64,000 bases of DNA from Escherichia coli O127:H6 str. E2348/69 (GTDB lineage: Bacteria > Pseudomonadota > Gammaproteobacteria > Enterobacterales > Enterobacteriaceae): NCBI RefSeq assembly GCF_000026545.1, contig NC_011601.1; one strand, written 5' to 3'. Position numbers: made by a program. Of this stretch, positions 48,592 to 51,500 are shown in pieces. Position 1 is the stretch's first letter, and every line of letters starts with the position of its first letter.

Positions 48592-51500
48592 TGAACCCGA
48601 CAGAATAAAATGAGATTGCAGGAAAATTCGGTTAACGGAGTGATCGAGTTAACGTTGTTAAGTTAAATATTGGTTTTAACTCTGATTTACATGGTTGCTG
48701 TGTTGTTAAATTGTACAAAGATGTTATAGAAACAAAATGTAACATCTCTATGGACACGCACACGGATAACAACTATGAACAAATCAGGGAAATACCTCGT
48801 CTGGACAGTGCTCTCTGTAATGGGAGCATTTGCTCTGGGATACATTGCTTTAAATCGTGGGGAACAGATCAACGCGCTGTGGATTGTGGTGGCGTCGGTC
48901 TGTATCTATCTGATCGCTTACCGTTTTTATGGGCTGTATATCGCCAAAAATGTGCTGGCGGTTGACCCGACGCGTATGACGCCAGCGGTGCGCCATAACG
49001 ACGGGCTGGACTATGTGCCGACGGACAAAAAAGTGCTGTTCGGTCACCATTTTGCGGCCATTGCCGGAGCAGGTCCGTTGGTTGGGCCGGTACTGGCGGC
49101 GCAAATGGGCTACCTGCCGGGGATGATCTGGCTGCTCGCCGGGGTGGTTCTCGCCGGTGCGGTGCAGGATTTCATGGTGCTGTTTGTTTCTACGCGCCGT
49201 GACGGTCGCTCGCTGGGTGAGCTGGTCAAAGAAGAGATGGGGCCAACCGCCGGGGTGATTGCGCTGGTGGCCTGCTTTATGATCATGGTCATTATCCTTG
49301 CCGTGCTGGCGATGATCGTGGTGAAAGCCCTGACTCATAGCCCGTGGGGAACGTATACCGTTGCGTTCACTATTCCGCTGGCGCTGTTTATGGGGATCTA
49401 TCTGCGCTATCTGCGTCCGGGGCGTATTGGCGAAGTGTCGGTCATCGGCCTGGTGTTCCTTATTTTCGCCATTATCTCTGGCGGCTGGGTGGCAGAAAGT
49501 CCGACCTGGGCACCGTACTTTGACTTTACCGGCGTGCAGCTGACCTGGATGCTGGTGGGTTACGGTTTTGTGGCGGCGGTGCTGCCAGTGTGGCTGTTGC
49601 TGGCCCCGCGCGACTACCTCTCAACCTTCCTGAAAATCGGGACTATCGTCGGTCTGGCGGTGGGCATTTTGATTATGCGCCCGACGCTGACCATGCCTGC
49701 GCTAACTAAATTTGTCGATGGCACTGGCCCGGTATGGACCGGTAACCTGTTCCCGTTCCTGTTTATCACCATCGCCTGTGGCGCGGTGTCTGGCTTCCAT
49801 GCACTGATCTCTTCCGGCACTACACCGAAGATGCTGGCGAACGAAGGGCAGGCGTGCTTTATCGGCTACGGTGGGATGTTGATGGAATCCTTCGTGGCGA
49901 TTATGGCGCTGGTTTCCGCCTGTATCATCGATCCGGGTGTGTACTTCGCCATGAACAGCCCGATGGCGGTGCTGGCTCCGGCAGGGACGGCGGATGTGGT
50001 TGCTTCTGCCGCGCAGGTGGTGAGTAGCTGGGGCTTTGCGATTACCCCGGATACGCTAAACCAGATTGCCAGCGAAGTGGGTGAACAGTCGATCATTTCT
50101 CGTGCGGGCGGTGCGCCGACCCTGGCGGTGGGGATGGCCTACATTCTGCACGGTGCGCTGGGCGGCATGATGGATGTGGCGTTCTGGTATCACTTCGCCA
50201 TTCTGTTTGAAGCACTGTTTATTCTGACGGCGGTGGATGCGGGTACGCGTGCTGCGCGCTTTATGTTGCAGGATCTGCTGGGCGTGGTGTCTCCGGGCCT
50301 GAAACGGACCGATTCACTGCCTGCTAACCTGCTGGCAACGGCGCTGTGCGTGCTGGCGTGGGGCTACTTCCTGCATCAGGGCGTGGTCGATCCGCTGGGC
50401 GGTATTAACACCTTGTGGCCGCTGTTTGGTATTGCCAACCAGATGCTGGCAGGGATGGCGCTGATGCTCTGTGCTGTGGTGCTGTTCAAAATGAAACGTC
50501 AACGTTACGCCTGGGTGGCGCTGGTACCAACGGCCTGGCTGCTGATTTGTACCCTGACCGCAGGCTGGCAGAAAGCGTTTAGCCCGGATGCGAAAGTCGG
50601 CTTCCTGGCGATTGCTAACAAGTTCCAGGCAATGATCGACAGCGGCAATATTCCGTCGCAGTATACTGAGTCACAACTGGCGCAACTGGTGTTCAACAAC
50701 CGTCTGGATGCCGGATTAACCATCTTCTTTATGGTGGTTGTGGTGGTTCTGGCGCTGTTCTCGATTAAGACGGCACTGGTGGCATTGAAAGAGCCGAAGC
50801 CAACGGCGAAAGAAACGCCATATGAGCCGATGCCGGAAAATGTCGAGGAGATCGTGGCGCAGGCGAAAGGCGCGCACTAAAGTCAGAGTGAGGGGGAATG
50901 TGCTGAGCGTTCCCCTTACTCTCATCCCGAGCGTGTTGATAGCAATTAAGCCCTCTTAATTCAGGAGGGCATTTGTATTACCGGAGGTTTAGATGTTTGA
51001 TTCACTGGCAAAAGCCGGAAAATATTTAGGTCAGGCGGCGAAACTGATGATTGGTATGCCTGATTACGACAACTATGTCGAACATATGCGGGTTAACCAT
51101 CCCGATCAAACGCCGATGACCTACGAAGAGTTTTTCCGTGAGCGGCAGGACGCGCGCTACGGTGGAAAAGGCGGCGCGCGCTGCTGCTAAATATGTACGT
51201 CAGGCTTTAAACGATTCCACTTTTTCGAACGCTGCACGCAACGTACCTGGTGTCAGCGTGACCGGCAGGTAATGAATGGATTCCACCGGGCGTAGGGTGT
51301 GGGCAATCATTTTGTCGATCTCCACCTGATTATTGATATCCACTTCCAGCTCCGCCAGCGTAGTCGGCAGATGAAAACGCTGATACGCTCCAGTTAATTG
51401 CGCGAGCACATCATCCTGACCCAGCAAGGCGCTTTGCACCAGAATTCCGTAGGCGACTTTGGTGCCGTGGAGAAACTTCTCGGTTTGTGGCAAAACGGTC

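What the first reader, a model, noticed from the sequence alone, without database searches (positions are those of the whole stretch)
48595..51190. cstA with trailing small gene ybdD and a GGA-containing leader
The cstA start is preceded by ...CACACGGATAACAACTATG..., with a GGA motif overlapping the Shine-Dalgarno region, consistent with known CsrA repression of cstA. The 65-aa ybdD follows 112 bp downstream after two hairpins. This is a known arrangement (cstA-ybdD), noted as an ordinary region.
Basis: established knowledge. Interest (0 to 1): 0.12.

Follow-up and report, generated by a model that had tools for sequence, protein, structure and literature searches.

The report
Known cstA-ybdD pyruvate transporter locus

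Summary
The window is E. coli E2348/69 (100% identity). cstA is 48775-50880 (701 aa), ybdD is 50993-51190 (65 aa), and the spacer is 112 bp with two hairpins. CACACGGATAACAACTATG sits at 48759-48777.

Promoter, 39-nt leader and early coding region are identical to K-12, where CsrA repression by ribosome occlusion is published. Its SD site (-11 to -9) is this GGA (48764-66), and the in vivo CLIP-seq peak maps to 48736-48823.

Refinements:
- A single GGA at an SD means nothing: 29 of 43 genes in this window have one. What counts is the cluster of sites (-23, -11, +13, +28) and its conservation.
- The two GGAs further upstream lie in promoter DNA, not in the mRNA.
- The same leader is a validated GcvB target. 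The pairing at 48748-56 overlaps the upstream GGA.
- The gene pair is conserved in 79 of 80 Enterobacteriaceae species, but the spacer is not the K-12 one. K-12 has 182 bp with inserted repeats, and this allele is in 22% of E. coli genomes.
- Nearly every genus has a non-homologous hairpin after cstA, and so does the paralog btsT-yjiX.

Verdict: already known, low interest.

The parts
48639..48654 (.). Putative cAMP-CRP site (AGTGA-TCGAGT-TAACG), centred about 89.5 bp upstream of the TSS
   Evidence: The half-sites are highly conserved (>=80-90% per column) across 81 Enterobacteriaceae loci while the central spacer varies. The position fits the published description: within -200..-120 of the ATG and about 80 nt upstream of the TSS (PMC7730263). 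Assigning these exact bases is my inference.
48703..48730 (+). cstA promoter: -35 TTGTTA (48703-08), 16-bp spacer, extended -10 TGtTATAGA (48722-30)
   Evidence: Inferred from the TSS position and strong cross-genus conservation of both blocks. The generic sigma-70 scan did not report it, which fits an activator-dependent promoter.
48736..48774 (+). cstA 5' UTR (39 nt), TSS at 48736
   Evidence: The K-12 cstA mRNA used by Leistra et al. starts AATGTAAC with the start codon at position 40, and is found verbatim at window 48736. The CLIP-seq peak begins at the same base. The region is poorly structured: the first 80 nt fold at -8.4 kcal/mol.
48748..48756 (+). GcvB R3 pairing site (CUAUGGACA), overlapping the upstream GGA
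   Evidence: It forms 9 contiguous pairs with GcvB nt 159-167 (UGUCCAUAG). Only 1% of shuffled leaders pair as well. G-22 (48753) pairs with GcvB C162, as in the published compensatory mutants G-22C/C162G (PMC9299463).
48751..48755 (+). A(N)GGA motif AUGGA at -24..-20 (candidate upstream CsrA site)
   Evidence: Primary-type motif by the criteria of PMC4066749. It lies inside the CLIP-seq peak. It is kept in only 20 of 81 species, the Escherichia/Citrobacter/Salmonella group.
48762..48766 (+). ACGGA: the Shine-Dalgarno and principal CsrA site (GGA at -11..-9)
   Evidence: Published as the SD-overlapping CsrA site at -11 to -9 (Potts 2017 Supplementary Fig. 11; review PMC7652899). A GGA at this position is kept in 79 of 81 species.
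48786..48790 (+). AGGGA motif at +12..+16, in codons 4-6
   Evidence: A GGA is retained in 81 of 81 species. The Gly codon is always GGG or GGA, and four consecutive codons (TCA GGG AAA TAC) have conserved third positions. It lies inside the CLIP-seq peak. A Term-seq 3' end lies 5 nt downstream (48795).
48801..48805 (+). CUGGA motif at +27..+31 (secondary-type CsrA site)
   Evidence: PMC4066749 lists CTGGA as a secondary site on the authority of the cstA binding study. It is kept in 23 of 81 species.
48775..50880 (+). cstA, pyruvate/H+ symporter (701 aa)
   Evidence: NF011590 equivalog 1581 bits (cutoff 1188); PF02554 854 bits. RefSeq annotation. Transport function is shown in PMC5847655 and PMC7730263.
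48803..48835 (+). Early-ORF hairpin, followed by a mapped RNA 3' end at +60
   Evidence: Folds at -13.7 kcal/mol. The K-12 Term-seq 3' end 629954 maps to window 48835 on identical sequence, with an intrinsic terminator score of 3.11 and no Rho dependence. Pairing is kept in 80% of cells across genera, but covariation is not above controls. Its status is inconclusive.
50885..50922 (+). Spacer hairpin 1 (16-bp stem), specific to Escherichia
   Evidence: Fold. Present in E. albertii and Escherichia sp., and expanded by an insertion in K-12. A K-12 Term-seq 3' end (632098) lies at the position equivalent to window 50931, 9 nt past this hairpin.
50950..50979 (+). Spacer hairpin 2 (GCCCTCTT-AATTC-AGGAGGGC) plus tail ATTTGTATT; terminator-like
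   Evidence: Hit in the terminator scan. It is positionally and sequence-related to the single hairpin of the Citrobacter and Salmonella spacers (attaAGCCCTCTCC...GGAGAGGGCgtttg). In K-12 a REP-type repeat takes its place.
50983..50987 (+). ybdD Shine-Dalgarno (GGAGG)
   Evidence: Read from the sequence, 5 nt before the ATG.
50993..51190 (+). ybdD, DUF466 small protein (65 aa, ends R-C-C)
   Evidence: PF04328 105 bits against a cutoff of 25. RefSeq names it 'YbdD/YjiX family protein'. It is required for CstA-dependent pyruvate uptake (PMC5847655). It follows cstA in 79 of 80 species.
51200..52288 (-). hcxA (ybdH), convergent gene whose stop codon lies 9 bp from that of ybdD
   Evidence: The ybdD-hcxA pair is listed as a convergent transcriptional overlap (PMC12288877). 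A Rho-dependent minus-strand end at K-12 631994, equivalent to window 50875, shows antisense transcription across ybdD and the spacer.

Best explanation
The region is the E. coli cstA-ybdD locus. cstA encodes a proton-coupled pyruvate importer, and ybdD encodes a 65-aa DUF466 protein needed for that uptake.

cstA is transcribed from a CRP-activated, Fis-repressed sigma-70 promoter, with the TSS at 48736. This gives a 39-nt, largely unstructured leader. Two systems repress translation on the same short stretch. CsrA dimers bind GGA motifs at the Shine-Dalgarno (48764-66) and at flanking sites (-23, +13, +28), and so keep the 30S subunit off the mRNA. The Hfq-dependent sRNA GcvB pairs through its R3 region with 48748-56 and through its GU-rich R1 region with the CA-rich tract next to the SD.

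ybdD is most likely expressed by read-through of the hairpins in the spacer. Those hairpins also mark a cstA mRNA 3' end.

Shown by others on identical sequence: CsrA binding and ribosome occlusion, the CLIP-seq peak, GcvB pairing, CRP/Fis control, and the requirement for ybdD. Inferred here: the exact promoter hexamers and CRP bases, co-transcription of ybdD, and the role of the hairpins.
For: Identity: 100% match to E2348/69 with cstA and ybdD annotated at these positions; HMM scores above the curated cutoffs.

Transfer of the K-12 experiments is legitimate. 48685-48920 is identical to K-12, the published 139-nt cstA mRNA is found verbatim at 48736, and the first 100 nt of the mRNA are >=99% identical in 5411 of 5418 E. 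coli genomes.

CsrA: up to four sites with one over the SD, and toeprints showing ribosome exclusion (PMC7652899). The SD site is at -11..-9 and CLIP-seq peak_65 maps to window 48736-48823. The published sequence criteria are met, with 3 primary A(N)GGA sites and 3 pairs at 10-60 nt, all downstream of the TSS. GGA is enriched. The SD and +13 GGAs are kept in 79 of 81 and 81 of 81 species, with synonymous-site constraint at +13.

GcvB: repression needs R1 and R3, and the compensatory G-22C/C162G pair restores it. The predicted duplex places G-22 (48753) opposite C162.

Transcription: CRP activates and Fis represses.

ybdD: the deletion phenocopies a cstA deletion and the double mutant is not additive. 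Linkage holds in 79 of 80 species, with spacers as short as 47 nt that are filled by a hairpin and an SD, which leaves no room for a separate promoter.
Against: Potts et al. saw only a change in ribosome footprints for cstA, with no change in translation efficiency, RNA level or stability. [quoted passage not shown]

The footprinted sites are not in hairpin loops, unlike typical high-affinity CsrA sites, and the leader is unstructured.

I could not read the primary binding paper (Dubey et al. 2003). Assigning the -23, +13 and +28 motifs to its three or four footprints is therefore my inference from secondary sources.

Co-transcription of ybdD was not shown in any source I could read. A K-12 RNA 3' end maps inside the spacer, and this strain's spacer differs from K-12's.
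Confidence: 0.95

Rival explanations
1. The GGA is simply the cstA Shine-Dalgarno, and its resemblance to a CsrA site is coincidental. On this view CsrA does not act here.
For: GGA lies in -16..-5 of 29 of 43 genes in the window. Simplified CsrA-target criteria also pass entC and ybdM. Transcriptomics showed little CsrA effect on cstA.
Against: Published binding, footprint and toeprint data and an in vivo CLIP-seq peak exist on a sequence identical to this one. GGA motifs cluster here and are conserved, including at synonymous sites.
Confidence: 0.03
2. GcvB/Hfq is the physiologically dominant post-transcriptional repressor acting on this leader, and CsrA binding is secondary or matters only under some conditions. 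The two may compete for the overlapping AUGGACA element.
For: The GcvB pairing is genetically proven by compensatory mutation at G-22, inside the upstream GGA. cstA has abundant GcvB chimeras in the RIL-seq data. The CsrA effect in Potts et al. was confined to ribosome footprints.
Against: The R3 target CUAUGGACA is restricted to the Escherichia/Citrobacter/Salmonella group, where the upstream GGA is kept in 20 of 81 species. The SD and +13 GGAs are near-universal. My recollection of the Dubey 2003 abstract is that a csrA mutant shows 2- to 10-fold higher cstA'-'lacZ expression; I could not verify this here. The predicted R1 duplex is no better than shuffled leaders. The two regulators are not mutually exclusive.
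Confidence: 0.25
3. The spacer hairpins are selfish or neutral inserted repeats with no role in cstA-ybdD expression.
For: Hairpin sequences are not homologous between genera and include recognisable repeat families. Spacer length varies from 47 to 182 nt. K-12 and this strain carry different inserts. Only about 25% of the hairpins are followed by >=4 T in 8 nt, so most are not canonical terminators.
Against: A perfect GC-rich hairpin of >=6 bp is present in 73 of 79 species, and 91% of spacers fold better than shuffles at z < -2. This includes minimal 47-55 nt spacers that have no room for an inserted element. The paralogous btsT-yjiX spacer has one too. A K-12 RNA 3' end maps just past the first hairpin.
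Confidence: 0.3

Closest known systems
E. coli K-12 cstA-ybdD locus (b0598-b4512)
   Same: Same genes in the same order, with the same neighbours (entH upstream, hcxA convergent downstream). Promoter, leader and early ORF are identical. YbdD is 100% identical.
   Different: The cstA-ybdD spacer is 112 bp here and 182 bp in K-12. K-12 has an insertion inside hairpin 1 and a REP-type repeat in place of hairpin 2. Calling these REP and Box-C-like is from my own knowledge of those repeat families, not from a test. The allele in this window is found in 1188 of 5426 complete E. coli genomes.
glgC leader, the prototype CsrA ribosome-occlusion target
   Same: Several GGA sites, one over the SD. [quoted passage not shown]
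   Different: The cstA sites extend into the first codons, are not presented in hairpin loops, and share the leader with a GcvB pairing site. I did not inspect glgC itself.
btsT-yjiX (yjiY-yjiX), the paralogous pyruvate transporter pair
   Same: A CstA-family transporter followed by a DUF466 protein ending R-C-C. The 49-nt spacer carries a terminator-like hairpin directly after the transporter's stop codon. Both are regulated by CRP and CsrA.
   Different: btsT is induced by the BtsS/BtsR two-component system, while cstA is expressed in stationary phase without a specific inducer. The btsT leader has no cstA-like GGA cluster near its SD (by inspection).
Intercistronic REP or hairpin stabilisers such as malE-malF (from my own knowledge)
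   Same: A stable stem-loop between two cistrons, mostly without a U-tract, with an RNA 3' end mapping just past it.
   Different: No stability or stoichiometry measurement exists for cstA-ybdD. In this strain the hairpins are not REP sequences.

Membership tests
CstA family transporter (PF02554; NCBIfam NF011590, equivalog 'pyruvate/proton symporter CstA') | Full-length match above the curated cutoff | tested here: met
   1581.1 bits against a cutoff of 1188, covering 1-701 of 701. Pfam 854 bits against 27.
CstA family transporter (PF02554; NCBIfam NF011590, equivalog 'pyruvate/proton symporter CstA') | Orthologous genomic context (entH upstream, DUF466 gene downstream) | tested here: met
CstA family transporter (PF02554; NCBIfam NF011590, equivalog 'pyruvate/proton symporter CstA') | Proton-dependent pyruvate transport activity | not testable with these tools
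   Shown for the K-12 protein (PMC7730263 and PMC5847655).
YbdD/YjiX DUF466 (PF04328) | HMM match above the gathering score | tested here: met
   105.4 bits against 25, covering profile positions 2-61 of 61.
YbdD/YjiX DUF466 (PF04328) | Encoded directly downstream of a CstA-family transporter; C-terminal Arg-Cys-Cys | tested here: met
   The family is described this way in bioRxiv 10.1101/2022.07.06.499078.
KCU-star selenoprotein (NF033934) | Score above the equivalog cutoff and a C-terminal Cys-Sec (UGA) ending | tested here: not met
   70 bits against a cutoff of 85. The protein ends Cys-Cys and is followed by TAA. It is a Cys-containing relative, not a selenoprotein.
CsrA-repressed mRNA, multi-site class (criteria of Kulkarni et al. 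2014) | An A(N)GGA site in -30..+5 overlapping or near the SD | tested here: met
   AUGGA at -24..-20 and ACGGA at -13..-9.
CsrA-repressed mRNA, multi-site class (criteria of Kulkarni et al. 2014) | At least 3 sites and at least 2 site pairs 10-60 nt apart, all downstream of the TSS | tested here: met
   Three primary sites at -23, -11 and +13, giving three pairs; the TSS is at -39. cstA was in that paper's training set, and 2 of the 42 other genes here also pass, so the test is weak.
CsrA-repressed mRNA, multi-site class (criteria of Kulkarni et al. 2014) | Direct CsrA binding and CsrA-dependent repression | not testable with these tools
   Published for the identical K-12 sequence: footprint and toeprint and CLIP-seq.
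CsrA high-affinity site (GGA in a hairpin loop) | GGA presented in the loop of a short stem-loop | tested here: not met
   The leader is essentially unstructured (-8.4 kcal/mol over 80 nt). This agrees with the published remark that the cstA footprints lie outside stem-loops. It is typical of high-affinity sites but does not define a CsrA target.
GcvB target mRNA | Seed complementarity to GcvB R3, confirmed by compensatory mutation | tested here: met
   A 9-bp duplex between 48748-56 and GcvB 159-167, matched by only 1% of shuffles, with G-22 opposite C162. The genetics are in PMC9299463.
GcvB target mRNA | A CA-rich element pairing with the GU-rich R1 region | tested here: inconclusive
   The predicted duplex is -19.4 kcal/mol, but 80% of composition-matched shuffles do as well. 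R1 involvement is supported experimentally.
Intrinsic (Rho-independent) terminator, for spacer hairpin 2 | A GC-rich stem followed directly by a U-tract | tested here: inconclusive
   8-bp stem with 5 GC pairs. The tail ATTTGTATTA is T-rich but interrupted. The scan finds as many such sites in shuffled sequence (4 found, 3.4 expected).
Intrinsic (Rho-independent) terminator, for spacer hairpin 2 | An RNA 3' end mapped at the U-tract | not testable with these tools
   Term-seq exists only for K-12, which lacks this hairpin.
REP (repetitive extragenic palindrome) | Presence of the REP consensus palindrome in the spacer | tested here: not met
   The K-12 sequence GCCGGATAAGGCGTTCACGCCGCATCCGGC is absent from this window's spacer. 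Recognising it as REP rests on my own knowledge.

The most novel reading that the evidence does not exclude
The layout 'CstA-family transporter, then a stable hairpin, then a DUF466 gene' may be a selected regulatory design rather than an accident. It is kept across 79 species and in the paralogous btsT-yjiX pair, using hairpins that are not homologous and mostly lack a U-tract. The hairpin would act as a leaky terminator or exonuclease barrier. That would set the CstA:YbdD ratio and insulate cstA from hcxA antisense transcription. E. coli lineages that swapped the hairpin (the B2-type allele here, against K-12's REP) would then differ in YbdD output.

A related possibility concerns the abundant 3' ends at +20 and +60 of cstA. 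They may define short 5' RNAs that carry every CsrA and GcvB site and could titrate those regulators.
Probability: 0.15. Interest if true: 0.35.

Novelty: already known. Interest (0 to 1): 0.07.

Why it matters
It matters little as a discovery. The locus, its CsrA control, its GcvB control and the CstA-YbdD partnership are all published, and this strain's regulatory region is identical to the strain they were studied in. The check is useful in two ways. It also shows which part of that reasoning carries weight: a GGA in a Shine-Dalgarno is uninformative, whereas a conserved cluster of sites plus experiments on identical sequence is informative. The one modest lead is the recurring hairpin between transporter and accessory gene, together with its allelic replacement within E. 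coli.

Tried and rejected
- Rfam at permissive thresholds over 48100-51700 found nothing.
- The generic sigma-70 scan did not find the real cstA promoter, and its terminator hits were no more numerous than in shuffles. I did not use it as evidence for or against a ybdD promoter.
- The primary CsrA-cstA paper (Dubey 2003, PMC165747) is not held. A full-text search for the 10-mer GCACACGGAU, which I recall from its abstract, returned nothing. Site assignments therefore rest on secondary sources.
- There are no solved structures related by sequence to CstA or YbdD.
- The GcvB R1 duplex prediction was no better than shuffled leaders, because the leader's CA-rich composition pairs with R1 in any order.
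- The covariation test of the early-ORF hairpin gave 80% of cells paired but a score of 0.120 against 0.107 for slid controls, with only 2 pairs changing on both sides. Since this is coding sequence, I treat the result as inconclusive.
- My first tail analysis of the spacer hairpins relied on MFE top-level helices and was unreliable. I replaced it with an explicit stem search.
- I considered counting the upstream GGAs at 48621 and 48637 as CsrA sites. I rejected this because they lie about 100-115 nt upstream of the TSS, in or next to the CRP site region.
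Full report
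**What is there.** The window is a segment of the E. coli O127:H6 E2348/69 chromosome; 48400-51400 matches three E2348/69 records at 100%. RefSeq annotates entH, cstA, ybdD and the convergent hcxA at the positions given by the ORF list.

cstA (48775-50880, 701 aa) scores 1581 bits on the NCBIfam equivalog 'pyruvate/proton symporter CstA' (cutoff 1188) and 854 bits on PF02554. ybdD (50993-51190, 65 aa) scores 105 bits on PF04328. The spacer is exactly 112 bp. It folds into two hairpins, 50885-50922 and 50950-70, at -43.8 kcal/mol, z = -3.56. The quoted string CACACGGATAACAACTATG is at 48759-48777, with GGA at 48764-66.

**Is the GGA meaningful?** Not by itself. 29 of 43 annotated genes in this window have GGA within -16..-5 of the start codon, as expected from the Shine-Dalgarno consensus.

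What distinguishes cstA is a cluster. GGA occurs at -23, -11, +13, +28 and +48, which is 5 in the first 100 nt of the mRNA against a mean of 1.16. Only 0.7% of 100-nt windows reach that count. Under the published sequence criteria for CsrA targets, cstA passes with three primary A(N)GGA sites and three suitably spaced pairs. Two of the 42 other genes, entC and ybdM, also pass, so the criteria are only moderately specific.

**Why the CsrA interpretation holds.**
- The sequence from about 48685 to 48920 is identical to K-12.
- The 139-nt K-12 cstA mRNA used by Leistra et al. is found verbatim starting at 48736. This fixes the TSS and a 39-nt 5' UTR.
- Published work on that sequence reports up to four CsrA sites, one over the SD, with toeprints showing that CsrA excludes the ribosome.
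It lists CLIP-seq peak_65 at K-12 629855-629942, which maps to window 48736-48823.
- The first 100 nt of the mRNA are >=99% identical in 5411 of 5418 E. coli genomes.

The primary paper (Dubey 2003) was not available. My assignment of the individual motifs to its footprints is therefore an inference.

**Cross-genus evidence.** I fetched 80 orthologous loci from Enterobacteriaceae. A GGA at the SD is kept in 79 of 81 sequences and the +13 GGA in 81 of 81. At +13 the Gly codon is always GGG or GGA, and four consecutive codons have conserved third positions. That argues for constraint at the RNA level. The -23 and +28 motifs are kept in only 20 and 23 of 81. The conserved core therefore appears to be the SD/+13 pair, 24 nt apart, which is within the 10-63 nt bridging range quoted for a CsrA dimer.

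The same alignment shows three further conserved elements: a CRP-like site (48639-54), a -35 block (48703-08), and an extended -10 (48722-30). These fit the published CRP activation, the position of the CRP site, and Fis repression. The two GGAs at 48621 and 48637 lie upstream of the TSS and are not part of this mRNA.

The leader is also a validated GcvB target. Repression needs GcvB R1 and R3, and a G-22C change in cstA is compensated by C162G in GcvB. Folding the two RNAs gives a 9-bp duplex between cstA 48748-56 (CUAUGGACA) and GcvB 159-167, with G-22 (48753) opposite C162. Only 1% of shuffled leaders pair as well. This site overlaps the upstream GGA, so CsrA and GcvB share a few nucleotides. 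The R1 duplex prediction was no better than shuffles.

**The cstA-ybdD pair.** Deleting ybdD phenocopies deleting cstA for 3-fluoropyruvate resistance and pyruvate uptake, and the double mutant is not additive. A preprint reports a confident predicted CstA-YbdD complex.

ybdD follows cstA in 79 of 80 species; the one exception ends at a contig edge. YbdD ends Arg-Cys-Cys, as does YjiX. It falls below the cutoff of the related KCU-star selenoprotein model, at 70 bits against 85.

**The spacer.** The gene order is the known one, but the spacer is not the K-12 spacer. K-12 has 182 bp, with an insertion inside hairpin 1 and a REP-type palindrome in place of hairpin 2. The allele in this window occurs in 1188 of 5426 complete genomes.

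Across genera the spacer is 47-149 nt, typically about 55-60 nt:
- 73 of 79 spacers contain a perfect GC-rich hairpin of >=6 bp, with a median stem of 10 bp.
- 91% fold better than shuffles at z < -2.
- The hairpin sequences are not homologous to one another.
- Only about 25% are followed by >=4 T in 8 nt.

Hairpin 2 of this window resembles the single hairpin of the Citrobacter and Salmonella spacers and is probably the ancestral one. The paralogous btsT-yjiX spacer (49 nt) also has a terminator-like hairpin. K-12 Term-seq places an RNA 3' end at 632098, equivalent to window 50931, 9 nt past hairpin 1.

My reading is that the hairpin is a leaky terminator or 3'-end barrier and that ybdD is read through it. 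The shortest spacers have no room for a promoter. This is inferred, not shown.

**Other transcript features.** K-12 Term-seq also lists 3' ends at +20 (window 48795; stationary phase, 9744 reads) and +60 (48835; intrinsic terminator score 3.11, not Rho-dependent). The +60 end follows a hairpin whose pairing potential is kept in 80% of cells across genera, but covariation is not above controls. This is coding sequence, so I leave it open.

ybdD and hcxA converge with 9 bp between their stop codons. The pair is listed as a transcriptional overlap, and a Rho-dependent minus-strand end maps inside the 3' end of cstA.

**Verdict.** This is a correctly identified, well-characterised locus, so it rates as already known and of low interest. 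The only mildly new points are the recurrence of a non-homologous hairpin between transporter and accessory gene, and its allelic replacement within E. coli.

Noticed in passing
window 48731-48745: The block AACAAAATGTAACAT spanning the cstA TSS (-5 to +10) is nearly invariant across 81 Enterobacteriaceae loci. It is more conserved than most of the leader, including the GcvB site. In E. coli it forms part of an inverted repeat, ATGTTA (48721-26) N13 TAACAT (48740-45). No regulator known to me accounts for it.
   Followed up: partly
window 48795 and 48835: K-12 Term-seq reports RNA 3' ends at +20 and +60 of the cstA ORF, on sequence identical to this window. The resulting 60- and 100-nt 5' fragments would carry all the CsrA and GcvB sites. 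The hairpin before +60 keeps its pairing potential across genera, but covariation was not above controls.
   Followed up: partly
window 50881-50992 compared with L002:3501-3682: The cstA-ybdD spacer is polymorphic within E. coli. The 112-bp two-hairpin allele is in 1188 of 5426 genomes. K-12 carries a 182-bp allele with an insertion in hairpin 1 and a REP-type palindrome replacing hairpin 2. E. albertii and Escherichia sp. MOD1 have 118-120 bp versions with hairpin 1 plus a REP-type repeat.
   Followed up: yes
window 51188-51202 and minus strand to about 50875: The ybdD and hcxA stop codons are 9 bp apart and convergent, with no terminator between them. Published data list ybdD-hcxA as a transcriptional overlap. 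They also place a Rho-dependent minus-strand end inside the 3' end of cstA, so hcxA transcription runs antisense through all of ybdD.
   Followed up: partly
window 43766 (entC start) and 54187 (ybdM start, minus strand): entC (A(N)GGA at -7, +2, +20) and ybdM (-22, -14, -3) also pass the simplified CsrA-target sequence criteria. I did not check whether either is a reported CsrA target.
   Followed up: no
window 37321-38454: RefSeq marks wzz(fepE), the O-antigen chain-length regulator, as a pseudogene with an internal stop in this strain. A frameshifted hypothetical gene is annotated next to hokE at window 28015-28283.
   Followed up: no
window 50993-51190: YbdD scores 70 bits on the KCU-star selenoprotein equivalog, below its cutoff of 85, and ends Arg-Cys-Cys where the Campylobacter and Helicobacter relatives end Lys-Cys-Sec. 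The role of this redox-type C-terminus next to a transporter is unknown.
   Followed up: partly
window 48621-48639: Two further GGA motifs (GCAGGAAAA and AACGGAGTG) lie in the entH-cstA intergenic region but upstream of the cstA TSS. The second abuts the CRP site. They would be in RNA only if ent operon transcription reads through past entH. I saw no obvious terminator between entH and the cstA promoter.
   Followed up: no
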